Source: a virus | IMG/VR virus record: IMGVR_UViG_3300045988_070690 | Coordinates: 1-37,095 of that record | DNA length: 37,095 bases | Direction: 5' to 3' (one strand) | Part shown: in pieces, positions 2,127 through 24,306 of the stretch | Layout of the letters: each line of letters opens with the position of its first letter | How positions within the stretch are numbered: the stretch's first letter is position 1 | The notes under the pieces: generated by a model | Seen by the model: the letters and a program-made list of their open reading frames with translations, nothing else | Database searches by the model: none | Told to the model about the DNA's origin: nothing | Position numbers and translations under genes: made by a program

Positions 2127-2687
2127 CTATCCAAAGACCGCACCCACTTGTCCTGCATCCAGTTTTTTGTTTGTCGGTATCCACAAGCTGTCCTTGATTT
2201 TCCGTATCCGCTTACGCTGGCTTTTATCCTTGATTTCAGCCAGATTGACGCTGCGATACGCCACACGCTGCTTTACAGCCGATTCGTCCGGCAGTGCTTC
2301 CAGAAGCAGCCGAAATTTGTACCAGTGCAGTGCATCTTTTGTCAAGTCGATTTGATAAAATCGAAGAAAATCGCTGATGATGTACGCTCCGTCATATGTA
2401 TATGACAGCAGCTGCGTGTTTGCGGATTTCCCCGTTTCACGTCCCGTGTGTGGCATATCTGCACATGATGCATACCTGAGCAGGGCTTGATACGCCTCCG
2501 CAACATCGCACGGAGGGCGTGCCCGATACCACGCCATAGCACACAGCACGCGTTCCTCTGCTGTGTACGTTTCGTCTGCCAGCATTTCCAAAAAAGAAAG
2601 CCATTCCCGATAGTCAGTCACTACCGGATATGGCTTTCCTTGTACGCTGACGGTATCCGGTAAGCTATCATACAGTGGGTGCAGCAT
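2127..2687 (-). CDS. Phage Gp15-family protein (tail assembly chaperone position)
   Basis: 186 aa, MLHPLYDSLPDTVSVQGKPYPVVTDYREW..HWYKFRLLLEALPDESAVKQRVAYRSV resembles the bacteriophage Gp15 family. It lies immediately upstream of the tape measure gene. AGGAAA RBS before the ATG. Confidence 0.7.
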   Translation of the reverse strand: MLHPLYDSLPDTVSVQGKPYPVVTDYREWLSFLEMLADETYTAEERVLCAMAWYRARPPCDVAEAYQALLRYASCADMPHTGRETGKSANTQLLSYTYDGAYIISDFLRFYQIDLTKDALHWYKFRLLLEALPDESAVKQRVAYRSVNLAEIKDKSQRKRIRKIKDSLWIPTNKKLDAGQVGAVFG

Positions 2688-3036
2688 TTTCGTTTCCTCT
2701 GGTCTTCGGGGCGTATTTCAGCAGGATACTTGCGATTCTGCGGTTCGACTCTGCTTTTTGGTCGTGGATACACCGAAGCAGAGATGCATAGATTTCATCA
2801 AAGCAGCGTTTGTTGTCCGGTACATCGGACAGCACTTTTCCGGCGTTTTCTTCTCCGATCAAGTCGGCATAAAAAATCCGGAAGTCATTGCAGTACTTCC
2901 GGATTCTGTCAGATTCCAGTTTTGGTGCGGCTTCATTTTCTCGCTCCGCTGCACTTTCCACTGCGGCGTTGTACTTATCCCAAAACGACGCAGATTCCGC
3001 GTCTACGCCATAGCCCTTCCAGTTGATCTCGTCCAT
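2668..3036 (-). CDS. Tail assembly chaperone-like protein
   Basis: 122-aa acidic ORF between the major tail and Gp15-like genes. The assignment rests on synteny only. Confidence 0.55.
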   Translation of the reverse strand: MDEINWKGYGVDAESASFWDKYNAAVESAAERENEAAPKLESDRIRKYCNDFRIFYADLIGEENAGKVLSDVPDNKRCFDEIYASLLRCIHDQKAESNRRIASILLKYAPKTRGNENAAPTV

Positions 3037-3054
3037 TTCTGCACCTCCACGGCG

Positions 3055-3864
3055 TTAAGATACTTTGATTTTGTATGTGCTTGTGCTGAACCCGTCTGTC
3101 ACTGTGATCGTGATGTTGTCACCAGACTTCAAGCCGTTGAACTGGTTTGTCTTGCCGCTGACAGTGTTGCTTGTGACATACGATTCGCCGTTGCAAGATA
3201 CTACGACAGTCAAAGATGCGTTTTCCGCAGTCGCTTCCACGATCGCAGTTGTGGTTCCTGCCGGAATCGTGTATGACATAGTGCCAGCGATAAACGCCGG
3301 TGTCAGAGCGACAGTCTTACCAGCACTTTCCACAGCCAAAGTCTTCAGCTTCGGCTTTGTTGCAGATGTAGACAGTTTCACAGTCTGCCAGTCGTCGCTG
3401 CTGATGACAGAAACATTTTCCCACTCGCCGTTGTTTTTTAAGTTTCCGGAGTAAGTCAGGACGTTTGCGTCATCGCCGCTGCCGTCAGGCACTACGCTGT
3501 AGCTCCGCATTCTGCCGGAAGCAGTGGTGCCGTCCTCGGACAGAGTTTTCATATCCACCTGGATAATGCGTCGAGTTGCCTGCTTGCCAACCTTTTCCTC
3601 GTCCGTGATCGTCACAATGTCGTCCTGCACTGCGTTTCCGTCGTACCGGTCAAAGCTGTAGGCGATGCTTTCCTCGTAGCCAACCGTGTCGGTTCTGCTG
3701 CTGCGTTCGTCCACATACTTTCTGCCATGCTCTGTCGCCGACTTGGACGTGCTCATTCTTGTAAAACCTTCCATACGCACGAAAGCATACTGACCAGGGA
3801 TTTCGTAAAACGCGACCTTTTCGTCACGCATCACGAGATTGCCATTCTGTAAAGTTTTACCCAT
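3055..3864 (-). CDS. Major tail protein with a C-terminal cadherin-like/Ig-like beta-sandwich decoration domain
   Basis: 269 aa. The N-terminal part (MGKTLQNGNLVMRDEKVAFYEIPGQ..FTRMSTSKSATEHGRKYVDE) resembles siphovirus major tail proteins. The C-terminus (LKTLAVESAGKTVALTPAFIAGTMSYTIPAG..ITITVTDGFSTSTYKIKVS) fits the cadherin-like beta-sandwich pattern. Confidence 0.75.
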   Translation of the reverse strand: MGKTLQNGNLVMRDEKVAFYEIPGQYAFVRMEGFTRMSTSKSATEHGRKYVDERSSRTDTVGYEESIAYSFDRYDGNAVQDDIVTITDEEKVGKQATRRIIQVDMKTLSEDGTTASGRMRSYSVVPDGSGDDANVLTYSGNLKNNGEWENVSVISSDDWQTVKLSTSATKPKLKTLAVESAGKTVALTPAFIAGTMSYTIPAGTTTAIVEATAENASLTVVVSCNGESYVTSNTVSGKTNQFNGLKSGDNITITVTDGFSTSTYKIKVS

Positions 3865-4294
3865 TGTTGTACCTCCTGTCTTGATAGTACGTAAGTTTCA
3901 GTTGGATTTGATACCGTGCTGTGCTGTCGCCGGCATCGTATACATATCCGCTAGTGGTGATTTCCACGCGTTGTGCAGTGCGGTATTCTCCAAGTTCCGG
4001 AAGCCGCCGCAGCTTGTTTTGTACCGCGATCCAGTCGGAAAAGTTGTCGTAAAACGCACTGTTTGCCAAATTTTGTGCAGTGTCGGCATACTGATTTCTG
4101 CTTGCGAACACAAACAAAAACTGCCGCAGTTTCGAGCCGTCCACATATTGCGATGCAACTGGATTGCAAGGCACAGTATCTACGGTATAGCCGATAGGGT
4201 CAGCCCCCAAGTGGTCAACGCCTAAAATTGCGTTTTCTTCGACAAGCGGACAGCTTGCAATCCAGTCACGCACAGCTTCAATGATTGCTGTCAT
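3857..4294 (-). CDS. Tail terminator / tail completion protein
   Basis: 145-aa ORF directly upstream of the major tail gene. Overlapping start and stop codons indicate translational coupling. Confidence 0.55.
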   Translation of the reverse strand: MTAIIEAVRDWIASCPLVEENAILGVDHLGADPIGYTVDTVPCNPVASQYVDGSKLRQFLFVFASRNQYADTAQNLANSAFYDNFSDWIAVQNKLRRLPELGEYRTAQRVEITTSGYVYDAGDSTARYQIQLKLTYYQDRRYNNG

Positions 4295-4616
4295 TTTCGC
4301 CTCCTAGAATCTTTGCAACGCCGTCCTGCCAGTCTTCTGCGTGGTCTGCCTTGGCACGGTCAAACCACCGTGCTCCACGCAGCCCTTTAGAGCTTCCTTC
4401 GTAGTACTGTTTTTTGGCGTATGGAGTGTTCCACGTCACAGTGCCGCTGCCGATGTCGCTTGACATCTTGCCGCTTCTTTCCAGTGTACCAGTATCCAGC
4501 GGTACATATGGTGCACAAGTCCGTATCACTTCCTGATCCAGATACTTCTGTGCTTTTTCCAGGGCTTTTTCACTGCATTTTCCGGTATGTATCACCAGTT
4601 CGCCGTGTATCGTCAT
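4278..4616 (-). CDS. HK97 gp10-like head-tail joining protein
   Basis: 112 aa. LDQEVIRTCAPYVPLDTGTLERSG..TWNTPYAKKQYYEG matches the gp10-family pattern. Confidence 0.65.
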   Translation of the reverse strand: MTIHGELVIHTGKCSEKALEKAQKYLDQEVIRTCAPYVPLDTGTLERSGKMSSDIGSGTVTWNTPYAKKQYYEGSSKGLRGARWFDRAKADHAEDWQDGVAKILGGENDSNH

Positions 4617-4948
4617 ACCGCCGTCACCTCGATGTGCTGCACGTCCGCAGAGCCATACCGGTAATCCTCCACCGCCGTGATCGTTCTTCCGTCGCTTGGT
4701 GGCGTATCAGATTCACACCTTCCGCAAGCGATGATGTCAGCTTTCTGTGGCAGGTAGTCAGACAGCGATGACGCGGGGATACAGCACCAGATTTGGTCTT
4801 GCTGCTTCATAGACGTGCCAGTCTGCACCTGTGCCACGGTATCCTCCCAGTACACAGCTGGGATAAAGTGCGGCACATACGCCTCCATGCGGTTCTTGAC
4901 AGTCTTTTCATAGACTGTACAACCGACTTTATTGACAAACATAGTCAC
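4613..4948 (-). CDS. Head closure / head-tail adaptor protein
   Basis: 111-aa ORF in the connector block with a 4-nt overlap to each neighbour. Confidence 0.5.
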   Translation of the reverse strand: MTMFVNKVGCTVYEKTVKNRMEAYVPHFIPAVYWEDTVAQVQTGTSMKQQDQIWCCIPASSLSDYLPQKADIIACGRCESDTPPSDGRTITAVEDYRYGSADVQHIEVTAV

Positions 4949-5367
4949 ACCCCCCTGTACATCAGTCCTGTGCTGCCCAGATAGCGTATACAGATGCTCC
5001 GGAGATAGTCTTGCAAGCCGGAAGATGTGCCGTACAGCAAGCCTGAAATGGCCTGTGCAACTGTGGTATAGCTGACACTGTACTTACCGATTGTTTCGGA
5101 AGCTTTTCCGGATTTTCCGGAGCCGTTTGGTGTGCTGCTGCCGCCGTAGTCAGCATAGTCTGCCAACGCTTCGGCGATTGCACAGCAGCATTTTTTCACT
5201 TTTTCCGAAAACTCCTCCGGCACGCCACCAGAAAGGCGGTCAAACGTCACCATGTCCATGTACTCCGATGCACGCTCTGCATACATCAAAAACGTTTCTT
5301 CTTCTTTGATACGCTGCCCGCGGTAGGACTGCGTATAGTACGTGTGATCTGCATAAGGCATACTCAC
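4945..5367 (-). CDS. Head-tail connector (gp6-like) protein
   Basis: 140-aa ORF, the first gene after the capsid gene block. MSMPYADHTYYTQSYRGQRI.. is typical of DNA-packaging/connector proteins. Confidence 0.55.
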   Translation of the reverse strand: MSMPYADHTYYTQSYRGQRIKEEETFLMYAERASEYMDMVTFDRLSGGVPEEFSEKVKKCCCAIAEALADYADYGGSSTPNGSGKSGKASETIGKYSVSYTTVAQAISGLLYGTSSGLQDYLRSICIRYLGSTGLMYRGV

Positions 5368-5465
5368 TTCTCCTTTTTTGTCGCCGTGTCCTTTTCCTGC
5401 TTCGGTGCAGGCTTCTTTGCAGCTTTTTCAGGCTTTTCCGGAAACACCAAGCCTACTGTACGCAT
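5364..5465 (-). CDS. Small Lys-rich protein (33 aa), hypothetical
   Basis: ATG at 5465 follows a GGAGGTGA RBS. Sequence MRTVGLVFPEKPEKAAKKPAPKQEKDTATKKEK. It fills the gap after the capsid gene. Confidence 0.35.
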   Translation of the reverse strand: MRTVGLVFPEKPEKAAKKPAPKQEKDTATKKEK

Positions 5466-5481
5466 GCGGCTCACCTCCAGA

Positions 5482-6369
5482 TCAGGTCTTAGATACCGAT
5501 GCGTAGATGCCAAACTTCTTGTTGTCGTACACCTCTGTGATGCCGTAAGCACGGTAGAAGTACAGCCATGCATCAGAGTGCTGGTTCTGCTCCGGTGTGA
5601 TGACCTTGTTTACAGTGTGCTTGGTGAACTGGATCGGGGAATTTTTCTGCACGATCAGGAAGTTCAACTTCTTGCCTGCGGTTGCTGCCTTATATCCGCC
5701 GGCACTCTCATCAGCACCGGAAGAACCCGTCTTATCTACGCCGGAGAGCAGGTCAATGGCACTGTAAAAACGCGACTGCGGTACGCGGATTGTCTTCGCA
5801 AAGCCCGCCAGCATCGCCTTGGACTTGTAAGTGTCCAGTGCCTGAATCGCGTTGTACATAGTCGGTGTGATGTACAGCAGGCGGCTTTCCTGCGGCACCT
5901 CTGCCTCGTCCATAGCGATGTTTGCAGCGGTAATCGCAGCACAAACTGCCGCACCGTCTGCGAGATCTTCGCTCTTGTTGGTGCCAGCTGCCTTTGCATA
6001 TGCAGCAAAACGCCACGCGTCCATTTCCGGCACGACCTTGGTACGGATAAACTCAGAAGCAAGCTTTCCGAAGGACAGTGCTGCGGTTTCCTCGTTGTCC
6101 ATAGCGTCCACACTGAACCGTCTGCCGCGGTCGTAGTTAAACGTCTTTTCAACCCACTCCAGATCTACGTCACCGGACACGTAGCCGTCCTTGCGGCTGT
6201 AGTCCCCAAGACCGTCCATGCTCATCTTGGGGATCAAGATCGTCCGTGCATTGCTGCCCTGCCGTACAGTGCTGGAATCCGATTCCAGATCTGCTGTCAG
6301 TGTAGCACTCTTGTACACTTCGTCCAGCAGTTCGATATACTTTTTAATCAGTGTGAGATTGTTTGCCAT
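5482..6369 (-). CDS. Major capsid protein
   Basis: 295 aa. MANNLTLIKKYIELLDEVYKSATLTADLESD..IPKMSMDGLGDYSR resembles SPP1/A118-type major capsid proteins. It follows the scaffold gene. Confidence 0.85.
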   Translation of the reverse strand: MANNLTLIKKYIELLDEVYKSATLTADLESDSSTVRQGSNARTILIPKMSMDGLGDYSRKDGYVSGDVDLEWVEKTFNYDRGRRFSVDAMDNEETAALSFGKLASEFIRTKVVPEMDAWRFAAYAKAAGTNKSEDLADGAAVCAAITAANIAMDEAEVPQESRLLYITPTMYNAIQALDTYKSKAMLAGFAKTIRVPQSRFYSAIDLLSGVDKTGSSGADESAGGYKAATAGKKLNFLIVQKNSPIQFTKHTVNKVITPEQNQHSDAWLYFYRAYGITEVYDNKKFGIYASVSKT

Positions 6370-20877: not shown

Positions 20878-21641
20878 CGTGCGTTCATGAACTTGTTGAT
20901 AAAGTAAACTTGTCCCTTGCCCGTCACCTTCGGCGTTTTGTTGGTGGTGATATGCCCGTCAGAGTGCGTGATGATAGTCTGCTTCACTTCAAACAGCCCC
21001 ATTTCCGCAGATTTCTGCGTCGGCATGTTGTAGTCGCTGCCCTCTCGCTTTATCAGGTATCCGTTTTCACGGAGCCAAGCAAAAAGTCTGAACTGCCCTG
21101 TGTCCACGCCGTTCTGCTTCAGAATCTTTGCAAGTTCACCCACCAAGATGCTGGATTTCGACGCGGAAACGCTGTCTGCGAACAGTACTTTCGGCTTGTC
21201 CTGCTCCACTTTGGCTTCAAGCTGCTTTCGCTGCTCTTTTTCTTCTTTCAGCTGCGTCGCAAGCTGGATCAGAAAATCCGGTGAAGTCAAAGCCTGCTCC
21301 AGCGTCTGATCTGTCATGTACGCACCGTGCTTGCGTATAGACGGCAGGACCACGCTGGTAACCCACCGCTTGAACTTCTTCGCGTTCGGCAGTTTGCTGG
21401 AAAGAACAAGACTGTAGAGACCGGATTCGTTTAAAATTGTCAAATCCTGTGCGCCACCAAGGGTGTAACATTTCGTTACCCCCTTATCCTCAGCGTCAAC
21501 ATGGTCTGCTATCGCTTTGCTTGCGTTTGCATATCCCAGAACCTTTGCTACATCCTTTGCAACGAACCACGGCTCGCTGTCTTTCTCAACGGTGCGGATT
21601 TCGTGATACTCATAGTTCCAGACTAGTAAATTATTGTTCAT
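20874..21641 (-). CDS. Antirepressor (Bro-N domain plus KilAC/ANT C-terminal domain)
   Basis: 255 aa. Bro-N region (IRTVEKDSEPWFVAKDVAKVLGY..AIADHVDAEDKG) and C-terminal region (LVGELAKILKQNGVDTGQFRLFAWLRENGYLIKR). Confidence 0.8.
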   Translation of the reverse strand: MNNNLLVWNYEYHEIRTVEKDSEPWFVAKDVAKVLGYANASKAIADHVDAEDKGVTKCYTLGGAQDLTILNESGLYSLVLSSKLPNAKKFKRWVTSVVLPSIRKHGAYMTDQTLEQALTSPDFLIQLATQLKEEKEQRKQLEAKVEQDKPKVLFADSVSASKSSILVGELAKILKQNGVDTGQFRLFAWLRENGYLIKREGSDYNMPTQKSAEMGLFEVKQTIITHSDGHITTNKTPKVTGKGQVYFINKFMNAR

Positions 21642-21657
21642 GTTTCATCTTCCTTTC

Positions 21658-21858
21658 TTACGCCGGCATAAGCGGCAGAACTTTTTCGGCAGCTGCGGCG
21701 ATAGACGCTTGATAGAGCACGTGTCGTGCTTTTTCCTCACTTAGTCCGCCGATCAACTCGAAAAGTGTGACGACCTGCCCGATGTCAGCGTTGTACTTAC
21801 GACACGCTTCCATAAGTGTCATCGTGTCATCAAAAGTGGTTTTTACAGGCTCTCCCAT
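21658..21858 (-). CDS. Hypothetical protein; first conventional early gene after the non-coding block
   Basis: ATG at 21858 follows a GAGGTGA RBS. The track uses GTG at 21867. Confidence 0.45.
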   Translation of the reverse strand: MGEPVKTTFDDTMTLMEACRKYNADIGQVVTLFELIGGLSEEKARHVLYQASIAAAAEKVLPLMPA

Positions 21859-21867
21859 AGCTTTCAC

Positions 21868-22417
21868 CTCGCTTTCTTTTTAGATTTGTGGTAGGCACTG
21901 ATCTGCTCAATGCCCAGAAGCACCGGCACACGCATATCTCATGCGGGACGGTATGCACTGTGTGCTTTTACAGGCTTTCAGCCGCCTGTGGTCGCTGCTG
22001 TACTAGGTCTGCGTAACGTTATCACAGCCTTGCCCACAGCTGGGCTGGTGGAGCGTTCGGGGGTTGCACCTAAAGCTGTGGATTGTCAGCCCACAGCATG
22101 ACTGCATCGCTCCCCTTGCGGCGGCATCGTACTAGCCGCCGCGTGGAGAAAAATAAAAATGGAGGTATTACGCCATCATGGCGTTTTGAAGATGTTGGTG
22201 CGGCGTGCCGGAGTTGCACCGGAGCCGGTGGAAAGGTTGACCGGCTATCTGTTCGCCACATCTGACCGCGGTGTTGGCAGCACCACGGTCAGTTGCAATT
22301 GAAAGGAGTACACCGAGCAGTTTAACGTCTTACTCTGGACGGCTTTTTTGTTGTCCGCCAGTCGCGGACGTGTGGAAGCGGTCAGTTTAGAGCCGTACCG
22401 CCGGACGGCTTGAAAAA
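21868..22417 (-). ncRNA. Candidate structured non-coding RNA, distal block (about 550 nt)
   Basis: No RBS-led ORF. GC-rich with many perfect stems (22118-22125/22135-22142; 22262-22292; 22391-22410). One G.U pair forms only in the minus-strand sense. Confidence 0.4.
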
Positions 22418-22418
22418 T
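22372..22418. repeat. 47-bp direct repeat, left copy (44/47 identical to 23325-23371), containing hairpin AGCCGT-N8-ACGGCT
   Basis: Aligned by eye: GTGGAAGCGGTCAGTTTAGAGCCGTACCGCCGGACGGCTTGAAAAAT versus GTGGAAACGGTCAGTTTAGAGCCGTACCGCCGGACGGCTGGAAAAGT. Confidence 0.9.
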
Positions 22419-22894
22419 CAATACACCATTCCATTTTCGCGAATATGCATAAAGCCGCGAATTAGCCATGTCGGAACTTGTGAGTATCCAACGAAACCGC
22501 TTTTTTCATTGTAAACCGCTTGCTGTATATCATATGCTACACACCTACCAGCCCTATTCTCAATCAAAATATAGCATTTTTCGCCATTTTCCGGTTTCGT
22601 TTTATCGGTGTAGTTACCATGCCACTTTCTGAGATCCATAATATTTTTCTCATAATAGGCTCTAATTGATTTGTTAAAAAGAACTTCATATGCTGTAACG
22701 ATTTCCCCGCTGTTGCGTTTATCCTGTCCAATCGGATATGCAACCATAACAACATTTTCGCCGTTCTTATCACATTCATATAACACATTACATACTTCAC
22801 AACTGCCATTATTAAATTTGCACAATACTGGCGGATAATGCAAGGCAACTTTCATAATATCGTCAATGCTCATGCCATTTGTTTTTTTTAACAT
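22418..22894 (-). CDS. Orphan protein (158 aa) of the AT-rich cassette
   Basis: ATG follows a GGAGGAAAAAAGAA RBS. Sequence starts MLKKTNGMSIDDIMKVALHYPPVLCKFNNGSCEVCNVLYECDK... No family recognised. Confidence 0.6.
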   Translation of the reverse strand: MLKKTNGMSIDDIMKVALHYPPVLCKFNNGSCEVCNVLYECDKNGENVVMVAYPIGQDKRNSGEIVTAYEVLFNKSIRAYYEKNIMDLRKWHGNYTDKTKPENGEKCYILIENRAGRCVAYDIQQAVYNEKSGFVGYSQVPTWLIRGFMHIRENGMVY

Positions 22895-23035
22895 TTCTTT
22901 TTTCCTCCAAAAAAAATAAGATTTTTTCGCCTTGTGGTGTGGTGTATTATACTTGCCACTTTGTGCAGTTATGGAATACTACTTTTTTTCGTGAAGTAGT
23001 TCAGAAACACGTCTTTTCTTTTAGCCTTTTAGCTT

Positions 23036-23275
23036 CTACTTTTTTACATAGTCCTTAAAATGCTTCATAGGCTTATCGACTTCATAACCCCAGCGTTTTA
23101 TAATATTTTCGTTGCCTTCCTCCATAAAAACATTGACTTCAAAAAAGATTGTTTCTGTGTTTTCTGGAAGTGTTTCTCTAATTTCCTTGCACTTTTGCAA
23201 AGAAGCAGAGATGAACAAAACCGTCTCACGTAATACGTTTTTTGAAATATCGATTGCAGAAACAGAATACAGCAT
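23036..23275 (-). CDS. Orphan protein (79 aa) of the AT-rich cassette
   Basis: ATG follows a GGAGGTATAAAGTC RBS. Sequence starts MLYSVSAIDISKNVLRETVLFISASLQKCKEIRETL... No family recognised. Confidence 0.55.
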   Translation of the reverse strand: MLYSVSAIDISKNVLRETVLFISASLQKCKEIRETLPENTETIFFEVNVFMEEGNENIIKRWGYEVDKPMKHFKDYVKK

Positions 23276-23637
23276 GACTTTATACCTCCATGAATTTATT
23301 TTTTACGTGTTTTCGCCTGTCGGCGTGGAAACGGTCAGTTTAGAGCCGTACCGCCGGACGGCTGGAAAAGTAGCATTTACTCTCCCGACGGGTGTTGGTG
23401 GATGCTGCGGAATTGCACCGCACAGCAAGACAGAGGAAACGAAATAGACAATGCTCCCTGTTGGAGACAGCTGCCACGGAGTTGCACCGTGCATTGCCCA
23501 GAGGCTTCATATCTCTCAGCTGGACAACTAAGACGCACCCCCAATTATGCGGTGATACGCCACCACCTTATGCTTATTCGCTTTCCCTATAGGCGGGAAA
23601 CAAAATTTTCAGTCGTTCGCGTTTTGCCCTTGACTGT
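23276..23637 (-). ncRNA. Candidate structured non-coding RNA / long leader, promoter-proximal block (about 360 nt)
   Basis: It starts just downstream of the leftward consensus promoter. No credible ORF. Contains two T-arm-like hairpins (23475-23491, 23406-23422). Confidence 0.4.
23325..23371. repeat. 47-bp direct repeat, right copy
   Basis: See 22372-22418. The copies start 953 bp apart. Confidence 0.9.
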
Positions 23638-23643
23638 AATTAA

Positions 23644-23672
23644 ATTATAGCACATAACGCCAACATTGTCAA
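23644..23672 (-). promoter_or_regulatory. Early leftward promoter, perfect TTGACA-17-TATAAT
   Basis: Minus strand: -35 at 23667-23672, -10 at 23644-23649, 17-nt spacer. Confidence 0.8.
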
Positions 23673-23680
23673 CTGGAATA

Positions 23681-23727
23681 TTACACAAATCGCATACGAT
23701 ATTTTTGTGCAGTTTGCGTAATGTGAA
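23681..23727. promoter_or_regulatory. Imperfect inverted repeat between the divergent promoters (candidate repressor operator)
   Basis: TTACACAAATCGCA (23681-23694) versus the reverse complement of TGCGTAATGTGAA (23715-23727). The core CACAwwwCGCA is shared. Confidence 0.35.
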
Positions 23728-23746
23728 AATTAAAGCAAAAATTCAC

Positions 23747-23775
23747 TTGACAGCGTTCACGTTTTGTAGTATAAT
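23747..23775 (+). promoter_or_regulatory. Rightward repressor promoter, perfect TTGACA-17-TATAAT
   Basis: -35 at 23747-23752, -10 at 23770-23775. A GGAGG RBS follows, then ATG at 23800. Confidence 0.8.
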
Positions 23776-23799
23776 AGAATATAGAAAGGAGGTGATAGC

Positions 23800-24306
23800 A
23801 TGTGCTGGTATGAAATCTTGAAAACACTACGCGAAAAATCTGGGGAATCCATGTCGAAAACAGCAGAATTTCTTGGAATCCCAAAAGGTACGTATGCAAG
23901 CTATGAGTACGGGAAGCGAGAGCCTAACATAGAAATGATTTTGAAAATTTCAGATCATTTCGGCGTAGCAATTGACTATCTACTAGGTGGGAAATCCGCG
24001 GAAACGCCAGAAGACACCATAAAAAGGCTTGCAAAGCAGTACAAGATGACAGATGCACAGAGGGGTATTGCAGCCGCATACTTTTATATGGACAAAGAAA
24101 ACCGAGAAAAGCTTCTGGAGATCGTCAGGACGTTTGCAGACAGTGCAGATGCCGCGGAATCCAAAGAATCCCGCGAAAAATTCGAAAAAGTCAAGGTTGC
24201 AGCTTACCAAAATCCCGCCGGAAGTATCCCACGTGAAGCAGAGTATCCGCAGGAGCTGCTTGACGATATGGACAAAAACGCCCCTCTGACAGACCCAGAT
24301 ATGTGA
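23800..24306 (+). CDS. XRE-family repressor (ImmR-like)
   Basis: 168 aa. HTH LREKSGESMSKTAEFLGIPKGTYASYEYGKREPNIEMILKISDHFGVAIDYLLG. No S24 peptidase domain. Followed by the ImmA-like gene. Confidence 0.85.
   Translation: MCWYEILKTLREKSGESMSKTAEFLGIPKGTYASYEYGKREPNIEMILKISDHFGVAIDYLLGGKSAETPEDTIKRLAKQYKMTDAQRGIAAAYFYMDKENREKLLEIVRTFADSADAAESKESREKFEKVKVAAYQNPAGSIPREAEYPQELLDDMDKNAPLTDPDM

What the first reader, a model, noticed from the sequence alone, without database searches (positions are those of the whole stretch)
21868..23637. About 0.8 kb of hairpin-dense non-coding sequence at the head of the early transcript: candidate large structured RNA, split by an inserted cassette
The perfect-consensus leftward promoter (23644-23672) is followed by about 360 nt (23276-23637) with no RBS-led ORF. 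After a two-gene AT-rich cassette there are another 550 nt (21868-22417) with none. Only then does the first conventional early gene (21858) start. Both blocks are GC-rich and full of perfect stems: GCGGCGGC/GCCGCCGC at 22118-22142, a 12-bp stem at 22262-22292, AGCCGT/ACGGCT at 22391-22410 and again at 23344-23363, and TTCCC/GGGAA near 23583-23599. One position of the 22262-22292 stem is a G.U pair in the minus-sense RNA but an A/C mismatch in the plus sense. That supports a minus-strand RNA and argues against a DNA-level palindrome. If the two blocks are joined through the shared 47-bp repeat, they form a contiguous non-coding unit of roughly 0.8 kb. The size, the prophage context and the tRNA-like modules (next finding) recall the giant phage-associated RNA classes GOLLD and ROOL. 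I cannot reproduce their consensus from memory, so this may be a member of a known class, a new RNA, or an elaborate leader or antitermination element.
Basis: partly seen in the sequence, partly recalled or inferred. Interest (0 to 1): 0.8.

Follow-up and report, generated by a model that had tools for sequence, protein, structure and literature searches.

The report
tRNA-like RNA modules in phage leader
The non-coding DNA at the head of this gut prophage's early operon is not one giant RNA but a chain of separate, exchangeable structured RNA modules, three of which mimic the acceptor/T-arm half of a tRNA, plus a 27-nt pseudoknot-like motif found in well over 100 other phage contigs; none has a matching family in the Rfam library.

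Summary
The perfect leftward promoter, the two GC-rich ORF-free blocks, the AT-rich two-gene cassette, the 45-nt flanking repeat and all named stems are real. No GOLLD, ROOL, tRNA, tmRNA or intron model matches. Blocks A and B are independent modules: A occurs alone in at least 25 other prophage contigs, and B occurs without A in at least 12.

Block A (23540-23396) is a 145-nt unit closed by an acceptor-like stem, with two T-loop hairpins (UGCAAYU) and a 3' ACCA. Block B holds a 27-nt hairpin/pseudoknot motif, a 12-bp hairpin, two D-armless tRNA-like units (B1, B2) ending in ACCA, and a conserved three-hairpin 3' domain.

Homologues keep 96-97% of the proposed pairs, against 30-53% when partners are slid. 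Compensatory changes occur in several helices, and the G·U pairs fit only the early-transcript strand.

My best guess (about 0.4) is RNA-processing and stability punctuation: RNase P-type cleavage at the tRNA-like units would separate the accessory cassettes from the essential early genes. tRNA-mimic decoys and a cis-regulatory leader remain open. Function is inferred, not shown.

The parts
23644..23672 (-). Early (lytic) promoter, TTGACA-17-TGnTATAAT
   Evidence: 12 of 12 match with TG. It is divergent from the repressor promoter at 23747-23775(+). Relatives share sequence only down to about 23606.
23549..23566 (-). H0 hairpin (GUGGUG/CACCGC) at the 5' side of unit A
   Evidence: In other phages it reads GCGGUGA/UCACCGC and sits about 8 nt after a -10 box. 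The U.G to C-G change is consistent with pairing.
23396..23540 (-). Unit A: large tRNA-like unit. Acceptor-like stem 23540-23535 with 23405-23400. P1 23528-23520 with 23501-23493. T-loop hairpin 1 at 23491-23475. P2 23474-23448. Pyrimidine-rich linker 23447-23423. T-loop hairpin 2 at 23422-23406. ACCA 23399-23396.
   Evidence: Alignment A4 has 19 distinct sequences. 97.2% of cells pair, against 34-53% when slid. Double-sided changes occur only in the P2 inner helix (CUCC/GGAG, CUUC/GAAG, AUAC/GUAU, AUGC/GCAU). 32 unique variants.
23325..23369 (-). 45-nt repeat, copy 1 (hairpin AGCCGU/ACGGCU at 23344-23363, then CUAAACUGACCG)
   Evidence: L038 carries the variant AGCCGC/GCGGCU, which is compensatory.
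22418..23275 (-). Inserted AT-rich accessory cassette: 79-aa and 158-aa genes of unknown function
   Evidence: No Pfam match above the curated cut-off, and no PHROG or PADLOC match. Absent in L038. Other cassettes sit at the same place in relatives.
22372..22416 (-). 45-nt repeat, copy 2. It marks the 3' boundary of the variable cassette.
   Evidence: In L226-L228 three different cassette genes each end just before this hairpin.
22353..22369 (-). Hx hairpin GUCCGC/GCGGAC
   Evidence: It follows the repeat hairpin in relatives.
22315..22341 (-). 27-nt motif CGUC-C(A/U)GAGUAA-GACG-UUAAACUGCUC: 4-bp hairpin, invariant 8-nt loop, invariant tail, possible H-type pseudoknot (GAGU with GCUY)
   Evidence: Invariant in both block-B clades. 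It is also in named phages of Firmicutes and cyanobacteria. Hairpin covariation over 93 unique contexts: AU 53, UA 35, CG 3. Position 27 is a pyrimidine in 87 of 91. No Rfam family.
22262..22292 (-). H1, a 12-bp hairpin
   Evidence: 91% paired. U.G to U-A changes are consistent with minus-sense RNA.
22196..22260 (-). Unit B1: D-armless tRNA-like unit. Acceptor UGUGGCG/CGCCGCA, 7-bp hairpin, T arm CCGG-UGCAACU-CCGG, then CCA.
   Evidence: The minimum-free-energy (MFE) fold equals the centroid fold, z=-2.2. RNAalifold predicts the same fold. All three helices are 98-100% paired, with one-sided changes only.
22170..22184 (-). H2, a 5-bp hairpin with a variable loop, followed by the conserved ACCUCC (22166-22161) and a U-rich tract
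22118..22142 (-). H3, an 8-bp GC hairpin
22046..22113 (-). Unit B2: D-armless tRNA-like unit. Acceptor GGAGCG/CGCUCC, 8-bp hairpin with 7-nt loop CUGACAA, T arm, then A-CCA.
   Evidence: ARAGORN in mitochondrial mode calls 22113-22046 'mtRNA-Val(gac)'. Weak Tymo_tRNA-like hit of 18.5 bits. The T stem has 2 compensatory pairs and the hairpin has 1. The acceptor has A.C or U.C mismatches in 4 of 13 sequences.
21894..21989 (-). 3' domain: hairpins D1 (21970-21989), D2 (21926-21965) and D3 (21894-21914), upstream of the RBS of the 66-aa gene (start 21858)
   Evidence: z=-2.75. D1 has 1 compensatory pair and D3 has 3. The loops are nearly invariant.

Best explanation
The region is a modular 5' leader of the prophage's early (lytic) transcript. 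It is built from independently exchangeable RNA modules that alternate with accessory gene cassettes.

Shown:
- Three modules (A, B1, B2) are each closed by a 6-7-bp acceptor-like stem.
- That stem is stacked next to a 4-5-bp T-stem carrying the T-loop UGCAAYU, and is followed by (A)CCA. They have no D arm and no conserved anticodon.
- A 27-nt hairpin/pseudoknot motif, shared with well over 100 other phage contigs, opens block B.
- A hairpin pair marks the 3' end of each variable cassette.

Inferred mechanism:
- The modules punctuate the polycistronic early RNA.
- Host RNase P recognises the acceptor/T-arm/RCCA mimic and cuts at the 5' edge of each tRNA-like unit. 3' trimming then stops at the CCA or at the flanking hairpins.
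- This would uncouple the stability and translation of the promoter-proximal accessory cassettes from the downstream small gene and ant (antirepressor) operon. It would also release compact tRNA-like RNAs.
- The hairpins and the 27-nt motif would protect the new ends.

The family has no match in Rfam.
For: - T-loop 11-mer: 4 exact copies, all on one strand and only here. CCA follows 12-15 nt after each loop, and exactly 13 nt after the loop in B1 and B2, as in tRNA.
- B1 and B2 fold as D-armless cloverleaves, both alone and in RNAalifold. ARAGORN -mt calls B2.
- Pairing is kept in homologues. Block B: 96.5% against 30-42% slid, with 10 pairs changed on both sides; only 1 of 500 shuffles reaches that. 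Unit A: 97.2% against 34-53%.
- Many U.G pairs would be A.C on the other strand.
- Modularity: A without B, B without A, different cassettes in the same slot, and hairpins at cassette ends.
- Unit A usually starts about 8 nt after a -10 box and can end at ACCA directly before an RBS.
- In two unrelated phages the 27-nt motif is followed within 3 nt by a self-cleaving ribozyme: Pistol at 54.4 bits, and twister-P1 at 39.6 bits, E 1.6e-5, which is below that family's gathering score of 67.2. In those two contigs the motif therefore sits next to RNA-cleavage elements.
- No minus-strand terminator lies inside the leader.
- From general knowledge: bacterial RNase P cleaves non-tRNA substrates that have an acceptor/T-arm stack and RCCA. 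Examples are the tmRNA precursor, the P1/P7 C4 RNA and the TYMV tRNA-like structure (TLS).
Against: - No transcript-end data exist, so cleavage is pure inference.
- Divergence is low (73-100%). The acceptor stems of A, B1 and B2 show only one-sided changes and some mismatches: the A4.G69-type mismatch in 4 of 19 unit A sequences, and A.C or U.C in the B2 acceptor.
- The acceptor plus T stack is 11 bp rather than 12 in several units.
- The 3' CCA of unit A is not invariant: ACCA in 24 of 32 by my count of the listing, otherwise ACAA, AUCA, ACCU or ACCG.
- Unit A is not more stable than shuffled sequence (z=-0.5).
- RNAalifold offers a competing long-range helix for the B2 5' strand. A pistol-like P2 helix overlaps the B1 5' strand.
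- Only 2 of 19 scanned motif loci have an adjacent known ribozyme.
Confidence: 0.4

Rival explanations
1. Trans-acting tRNA mimics. The units are made, or released, to titrate a tRNA-binding factor. Candidates are a host defence nuclease or toxin that targets the tRNA acceptor end or elbow, the CCA-adding enzyme, EF-Tu or a synthetase. In that case they would be non-coding accessory (anti-defence) cassettes.
For: - The units sit in the variable, promoter-proximal slot that otherwise holds small unknown accessory genes, and they are exchanged like cassettes.
- The acceptor/T-arm/CCA half is conserved, while the 'anticodon' hairpins vary. L126 replaces the B2 loop.
- B2 carries A35, C36 and A73, which I recall as the main valine identity set (and my own knowledge).
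- The same U55-to-G T-loop occurs in many phage tRNA arrays.
Against: - No defence or partner protein has been identified.
- G3.U70 and other identity elements are not conserved.
- The CCA of unit A is variable.
- The units are internal to an mRNA, so they would need processing first.
Confidence: 0.2
2. Cis-regulatory leader. The folded modules control downstream early and ant expression through attenuation or antitermination, translational masking, or binding of a protein or ligand. The T-loops would serve as tertiary-contact modules rather than as tRNA mimicry.
For: - The position lies between the lysogeny-switch promoter and the small gene and ant.
- Loop sequences in the 3' domain are nearly invariant.
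- Several conserved pyrimidine tracts resemble anti-SD sequences: CUCCUUUC, CCUUUCC, ACCUCC and UUCCUCU.
- Alternative pairings are predicted.
Against: - There is no terminator or anti-terminator pair on the minus strand.
- Loop-to-RBS complementarity is no better than for shuffled probes.
- Relatives run the same downstream genes with no block A, with no block B, or with neither. Unit A precedes unrelated genes.
Confidence: 0.2
3. One large GOLLD/ROOL-like structured RNA of about 0.8 kb, interrupted by a cassette.
For: - L038 has A and B contiguous, about 700 nt in all.
- Block B alone is a conserved structured unit of about 450 nt.
- From general knowledge: GOLLD and ROOL are phage-associated and lie near tRNAs.
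Against: - No Rfam hit to GOLLD or ROOL at gathering score or at E<=10.
- A and B occur independently in most loci.
- No long-range A-B pairing was found.
Confidence: 0.05
4. Decayed tRNA genes, or DNA-level palindromes such as operators or an origin, with no RNA function.
For: - Phage early regions can carry tRNA arrays.
- Standard ARAGORN and the Rfam tRNA model do not call the units.
- Inverted repeats can bind dimeric proteins.
Against: - Stems are maintained while loops drift, with compensatory pairs and strand-specific G.U pairs.
- The units are kept across different phage types and host MAGs (metagenome-assembled genomes).
Confidence: 0.05

Closest known systems
Plant-virus tRNA-like structures (TLS; TYMV type, Rfam RF00233)
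   Same: Both have an acceptor-like stem, a T arm and an ACCA tail in a viral RNA. The T-loop heptamer UGCAACU is identical to the Rfam consensus. B2 has a GAC 'anticodon' and an A discriminator.
   Different: Here the host is a DNA phage, and the units are internal to a 5' leader rather than at a 3' end. They have no pseudoknotted acceptor and no D arm. The covariance-model score is 18.5 bits against a gathering score of 40. Aminoacylation is untested.
Phage P1/P7 immI C4 antisense RNA (leader of c4-icd-ant, matured by RNase P)
   Same: Both are a structured RNA with an acceptor-like stem and CCA, lying in the leader of an operon that encodes a small protein and then an antirepressor. RNase P processing is the mechanism proposed here.
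   Different: There is no Rfam C4 hit. No loop-to-RBS complementarity exceeds shuffled controls. The host phylum differs, and there are several units rather than one.
D-armless mitochondrial tRNAs and the tRNA punctuation model; mascRNA/MALAT1
   Same: B1 and B2 have the acceptor - hairpin - T-arm topology, and ARAGORN -mt calls B2. The shared idea is that tRNA-shaped elements inside a long transcript act as RNase P (or RNase Z) cut sites.
   Different: These units are bacterial/phage and have no decoding function. The anticodon loop is not conserved and the B1 loop is 10 nt. The CCA is encoded.
tmRNA tRNA-like domain
   Same: The topology matches: 5' acceptor strand, single-stranded linker, long helix, T arm, 3' acceptor strand, ACCA. 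Some phage two-piece tmRNAs use the same T-loop.
   Different: There is no tag ORF and no pseudoknots. G3.U70 is not conserved. ARAGORN finds no tmRNA in the window.
GOLLD / ROOL large phage-associated RNAs
   Same: Both are prophage-borne, sizeable, hairpin-dense non-coding RNAs.
   Different: There is no model match. The present region is a chain of independent modules.
Pistol self-cleaving ribozyme (RF02679)
   Same: The start of block B has the same order of elements. These are a 4-bp P1 with an 8-nt loop, a UAAA linker, P2 (CUGCUCG with CGAGCAG), a loop pseudoknot (GAGUA with UACUC) and P3, which is H1. In L215 the 27-nt motif abuts a true pistol.
   Different: The pistol model does not hit the window. 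The conserved pistol nucleotides are absent. In other phages the motif stands alone as little as about 10 nt before an RBS, so it is not the 5' half of a larger ribozyme.

Membership tests
GOLLD (RF01998) / ROOL (RF03087) | Match to the curated covariance model | tested here: not met
   cmscan of the whole window at gathering score gave 0 hits. cmscan of 21600-23900 at E<=10 gave no GOLLD or ROOL hit.
GOLLD (RF01998) / ROOL (RF03087) | A single conserved RNA unit of several hundred nt | tested here: not met
   Blocks A and B are distributed independently among relatives.
Canonical tRNA | Cloverleaf with a D arm and a 7-nt anticodon loop, recognised by ARAGORN or RF00005 | tested here: not met
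   ARAGORN in standard mode found 0 genes. No RF00005 hit.
Canonical tRNA | Acceptor stem plus a T arm with a 7-nt T-loop plus 3' NCCA, with 13 nt from the T-loop to CCA | tested here: met
   B1 and B2 have exactly 13 nt. In unit A the stretches following T-loop hairpin 2 and T-loop hairpin 1 have 12 and 15 nt. The T-loop carries G at position 55 instead of U.
Viral tRNA-like structure (Tymo_tRNA-like RF00233) | Covariance-model match at gathering score | tested here: not met
   18.5 bits against 40, E=0.71, for B2 only.
Viral tRNA-like structure (Tymo_tRNA-like RF00233) | Aminoacylatable 3' end | not testable with these tools
   This needs a ValRS and CCA-adding enzyme assay on a processed B2 RNA.
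P1/P7 C4-type antisense RNA | Loops complementary to the RBS region of the downstream icd/ant genes | tested here: not met
   The best duplex energies are no better than for shuffled probes (fraction 0.23-0.99). No RF01695 hit.
P1/P7 C4-type antisense RNA | Location in the leader of a small-gene and antirepressor operon | tested here: met
   A 66-aa gene is followed by a Bro-N/KilAC protein downstream.
Bacterial RNase P substrate (functional class) | Coaxial acceptor/T-stem stack of about 12 bp, a T-loop and 3' RCCA | tested here: inconclusive
   The stacks are 11-12 bp. ACCA is invariant in B1, and is ACCA in 12 of 13 B2 sequences (one has GCCA, so CCA itself is invariant). It is ACCA in 24 of 32 unit A variants. 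Actual cleavage cannot be tested here.
Pistol ribozyme (RF02679) | Covariance-model match and the conserved core nucleotides | tested here: not met
   No hit in 22230-22360 at E<=10. A true pistol in L215 scores 54.4 bits.
tmRNA | tRNA-like domain with G3.U70, plus a tag reading frame | tested here: not met
   ARAGORN finds no tmRNA. Position 3:70 is G.U in only 4 of 19 unit A variants and A-U in 11.

The most novel reading that the evidence does not exclude
The tRNA-like units are non-coding 'RNA morons'. On this reading they are excised acceptor/T-arm mimics, and B2 may be chargeable with valine. They would act as decoys or sponges for a host tRNA-targeting defence or tRNA-end-modifying toxin. 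Separately, the 27-nt motif would be a previously undescribed universal phage RNA device, for example a pseudoknot that blocks exonucleases or marks a processing site.
Probability: 0.15. Interest if true: 0.85.

Novelty: new variant of a known kind. Interest (0 to 1): 0.62.

Why it matters
To my knowledge, tRNA-like structures are a classic device of plant RNA viruses and of a few bacterial RNAs, but have not been described as exchangeable leader modules in temperate phages of gut Firmicutes. If they are RNase P cut sites, they reveal a 'tRNA punctuation' logic for phage early operons. That would explain how accessory cassettes can be swapped without disturbing essential genes. If they are decoys, they would be RNA-based counter-defence.

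It spans phages of Firmicutes and cyanobacteria, shows clean covariation and has no matching Rfam family. It is therefore a directly testable new RNA element, and it sits next to known self-cleaving ribozymes in two phages.

Tried and rejected
- Rfam at gathering score and at E-value threshold found nothing beyond noise.
- blastn of the region against 50,697 phage records found no match.
- Standard ARAGORN found no tRNA or tmRNA.
- The neighbouring 66-aa protein was used as an anchor. It has only 9 homologue clusters, and several of those loci lack the leader.
- A leader peptide was considered. MLWADNPQL, behind a GGGGAG, is not conserved: L114 reads through and L126 gives MMRE.
- c4-like antisense was tested. 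Loop-to-RBS duplexes are no better than shuffled probes.
- A recoding signal was considered for the 27-nt motif. Its distance to the upstream stop codon ranges from -8 to -55, and its distance to the downstream start from 10 to 130 nt.
- Pistol membership was tested and rejected. The motif can stand alone just before an RBS.
- Cassette proteins were scanned against Pfam, PHROGs and PADLOC. Nothing reached Pfam's curated cut-offs, and PHROGs and PADLOC gave no hits.
- The L142 'deletion' of H3 is a run of N, that is, an assembly gap. It is not evidence.
- The literature searches found no description of these elements.
Full report
**Context.** The window is a temperate phage.
- On the plus strand lie an HTH repressor (23800-24306), an ImmA/IrrE peptidase, an Ltp lipoprotein and a large serine recombinase.
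- On the minus strand, after the region in question, lie a 66-aa gene (start 21858) and a Bro-N/KilAC antirepressor.
- Two perfect sigma-70 promoters sit back to back. The leftward one is at 23672-23644 (12 of 12, with TG). The rightward one is at 23747-23775.

**Observation.**
- Between the promoter and 21858 the only RBS-led genes are a 79-aa and a 158-aa gene. They lie in an AT-rich stretch (GC 0.34-0.39) flanked by a 45-nt direct repeat that is 96% identical with 953-nt spacing.
- The two GC-richer blocks contain mechanical ORFs, but in relatives these are interrupted by 1-2-nt indels.

**Known families.**
- cmscan of the whole window at gathering thresholds gave nothing.
- At E<=10 over 21600-23900, the only relevant hit was a weak match of 22046-22113(-) to the tymovirus tRNA-like element (18.5 bits against 40).
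- Standard ARAGORN found no tRNA or tmRNA.
- blastn against 50,697 phage records found nothing.
- So this is not GOLLD, ROOL, a tRNA gene, a tmRNA or an intron.

**The key feature.**
- GGTGCAAYYCC occurs exactly four times in the 37 kb. All four are on the minus strand and inside the finding, at 23488, 23419, 22220 and 22070.
- Each is a 4-5-bp hairpin with the 7-nt loop UGCAAYU. That is a tRNA T-loop with G in place of U55, and the same heptamer as in the Rfam TYMV TLS consensus.
- Each is followed 12-15 nt later by CCA(A/G)C.
- B1 (22260-22196) and B2 (22113-22046) fold as acceptor stem, linker, 7-8-bp hairpin, T arm, acceptor 3' strand, then (A)CCA. This holds for each sequence alone, in the centroid fold and in RNAalifold. 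They have exactly 13 nt from the T-loop to CCA, as in tRNA.
- ARAGORN in mitochondrial (D-armless) mode calls B2 'Val(gac)'.
- B1 and B2 are paralogues: 37 nt at 73% identity.

**Relatives.** DNA-pattern scans and look-ups of the neighbouring protein gave many loci.
- *L038.* This is the same phage type without the cassette. Window 23554-23374 runs straight into 22387-21566.
- *Most close relatives.* They carry the same promoter, a different cassette (genes of 111 aa and 43 aa), the 45-nt hairpin and block B, but no block A.
- *L114 and L143.* They carry a 73%-identical block B behind yet other genes.
- *L122, L144, L145 and L226-L228.* They have the downstream genes or the hairpin but no block B.
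- *Block A alone.* It occurs in at least 25 contigs. These include Ruminococcus and Oscillospiraceae MAGs, 43 metagenome contigs (those with descriptive names are from human gut) and a Mu-like prophage. In most of the viral and genome contigs inspected it starts about 8 nt after a -10 box, and in several it ends at ACCA directly before an RBS.
- *Conclusion.* A and B are separate modules in a variable, promoter-proximal slot. The 45-nt hairpin, plus a second hairpin (Hx), marks the 3' edge of whatever cassette occupies the slot.

**Structure of unit A.** Divergent copies (L173, L200, L204, L206) show that block A is one unit, 23540-23396.
- *Elements.* An acceptor-like stem GGGUGC/GCAUCC closes four elements: a 9-bp P1, T-hairpin 1, a two-part P2 and a 24-nt pyrimidine-rich linker. 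T-hairpin 2 and ACCA follow.
- *Pair counts.* On 19 distinct sequences, 97.2% of cells pair, against 34-53% with slid partners.
- *Double changes.* Only the inner P2 helix has double-sided changes: CUCC/GGAG, CUUC/GAAG, AUAC/GUAU and AUGC/GCAU.
- *Acceptor stem.* It shows only wobble-consistent one-sided changes, plus some mismatches.
- *Tail.* It is ACCA in 24 of 32 unique variants by my count of the listing.
- *Stability.* The fold energy is not unusual (z=-0.5).

**Structure of block B.** On 13 sequences, 96.5% of cells pair, against 30-42% slid.
- Ten pairs are changed on both sides, and only 1 of 500 shuffles reaches that.
- The genuine double changes lie in the B2 hairpin (1), the B2 T stem (2), D1 (1) and D3 (3).
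- The B1 helices are 98-100% paired but nearly invariant.
- The B2 acceptor has A.C or U.C mismatches in 4 sequences.
- RNAalifold prefers a competing long-range helix for the B2 5' strand.
- Numerous U.G pairs fit only the minus-sense RNA.
- These counts carry the tool's stated caveats. The sequences are related, and the structure was derived from the same sequences.

**The 27-nt motif.**
- *Position.* The invariant start of block B (22341-22315) is CGUC-CAGAGUAA-GACG-UUAAACUGCUC.
- *Distribution.* Its 18-nt core occurs in 22 viral stretches. It is also in named phages of Lactobacillus, Staphylococcus, Geobacillus, Anoxybacillus, Synechococcus and Nostoc.
- *Setting.* In all contexts inspected it is intergenic and in the sense of the downstream gene. 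It often lies between the MuF minor head and scaffold genes.
- *Covariation.* The hairpin covaries cleanly over 93 unique contexts. The middle pair is AU 53, UA 35, CG 3. The outer pair is UG 25, CG 23, AU 14, UA 10, GC 7.
- *Invariant parts.* The loop and tail are invariant. Position 27 is a pyrimidine in 87 of 91. This fits a second stem, GAGU with GCUY, that is, a small H-type pseudoknot.
- *Spacing.* There is no fixed spacing to the upstream stop or the downstream start. The motif can sit about 10 nt before an RBS.
- *Database and neighbours.* It is not in Rfam. In L215 a Pistol ribozyme follows within 3 nt. In L219 a twister-P1-like element follows; it scores below that family's gathering score.

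**Mechanism.**
- Shown: the region holds conserved, strand-specific structured RNA modules. Three of them mimic the acceptor/T-arm/CCA half of tRNA. They are modular and exchangeable.
- Inferred: the modules punctuate the early transcript. RNase P-type cleavage would occur at the tRNA-like units, and the hairpins and the 27-nt motif would protect the new ends. The adjacency of the motif to self-cleaving ribozymes in two phages is indirect support.
- Tested and not supported: c4-like antisense pairing to downstream RBSs, and a terminator-based attenuator.
- Still open: trans-acting tRNA mimicry (decoy), and cis-regulation. The cassette proteins give no functional clue.

**Verdict.** The region is a new variant of a known kind: tRNA-like viral RNA elements, here as exchangeable modules in a phage early leader. 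It also contains a widespread 27-nt motif with no matching Rfam family. Function remains unproven.

Noticed in passing
It also occurs in named phages of Firmicutes and cyanobacteria. Its 4-bp hairpin covaries strongly, and its loop and tail are invariant. It has no Rfam family and no annotation. It may form an H-type pseudoknot.
   Followed up: partly
L215 12411-12500 (-); L219 3663-3738 (+): In two unrelated phage contigs the 27-nt motif is followed within 3 nt by a self-cleaving ribozyme. One is Pistol at 54.4 bits. The other is twister-P1-like at 39.6 bits, E 1.6e-5, below that family's gathering score of 67.2. The motif's hairpin loop (CUGAG) equals the pistol P1 loop, so both could pair with the same pseudoknot partner.
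   Followed up: partly
L188, L179, L174, L147, L150, L152, L154, L155, L160, L163-L166, L195, L196, L201; L006, L032, L041, L042: Many IMG/VR contigs carry tRNA genes, often whole tandem arrays, whose T-loop is GGUGCAAYUCC (G at position 55 instead of the universal U/pseudouridine). L188 alone shows six tandem T-loop matches. This is the same T-loop as in the tRNA-like units here.
   Followed up: partly
L029, L030, L043, L054, L068, L074, L083, L086, L090, L091, L097, L099, L108: A GC-rich conserved element, ...GGUGUCGAGGA-GGUGCAACUCC-CCGACACC-UACCACCAGC-AAAGGAG, lies directly upstream of an RBS in 13 viral contigs. It is a long hairpin presenting the same T-loop-like sequence. Its identity was not determined.
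   Followed up: no
L003, L015, L053, L106, L036, L019, L075, L085: Other viral contigs hold ACCA-ended, acceptor-closed, T-arm-bearing elements that ARAGORN does not call. Some have a G3.U70 acceptor (L003, L015). One is a bare minihelix (L053). tRNA-like elements may therefore be more common in phages than annotation suggests.
   Followed up: partly
window 22372-22416 and 23325-23369; L226-L228, L114, L143, L038 4520-4545: The 45-nt hairpin element (AGCCGU..ACGGCU CUAAACUGACCG) always sits right after the stop codon of a variable accessory gene. It is followed by a second hairpin (GUCCGC/GCGGAC). It behaves as the 3' boundary of a cassette insertion hot spot behind the early promoter. L038 has a compensatory variant (AGCCGC/GCGGCU).
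   Followed up: partly
L203 (Ruminococcus sp. MAG CABQIF010000016) 2345-5636: Unit A also heads the early region of a Mu-like transposable prophage. The order is a small hydrophobic peptide, an HTH protein, then a 656-aa Mu-type transposase. The RNA module therefore crosses phage types.
   Followed up: partly
L011 7698-8068 (-): A tmRNA gene (tag ARNNITVSSRSYAVAA) lies about 640 nt upstream of unit A on the same strand. This may mean the prophage is integrated at ssrA.
   Followed up: no
window 22326-22341 (+): On the plus strand, the complement of the motif hairpin followed by GCTTTTTTGT scores as an intrinsic terminator. It is not conserved in L114, so it is probably incidental.
   Followed up: partly
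window 23747-23775 (+) and 23644-23672 (-): Two perfect 12-of-12 sigma-70 consensus promoters sit back to back about 75 bp apart at the lysogeny switch.
   Followed up: no
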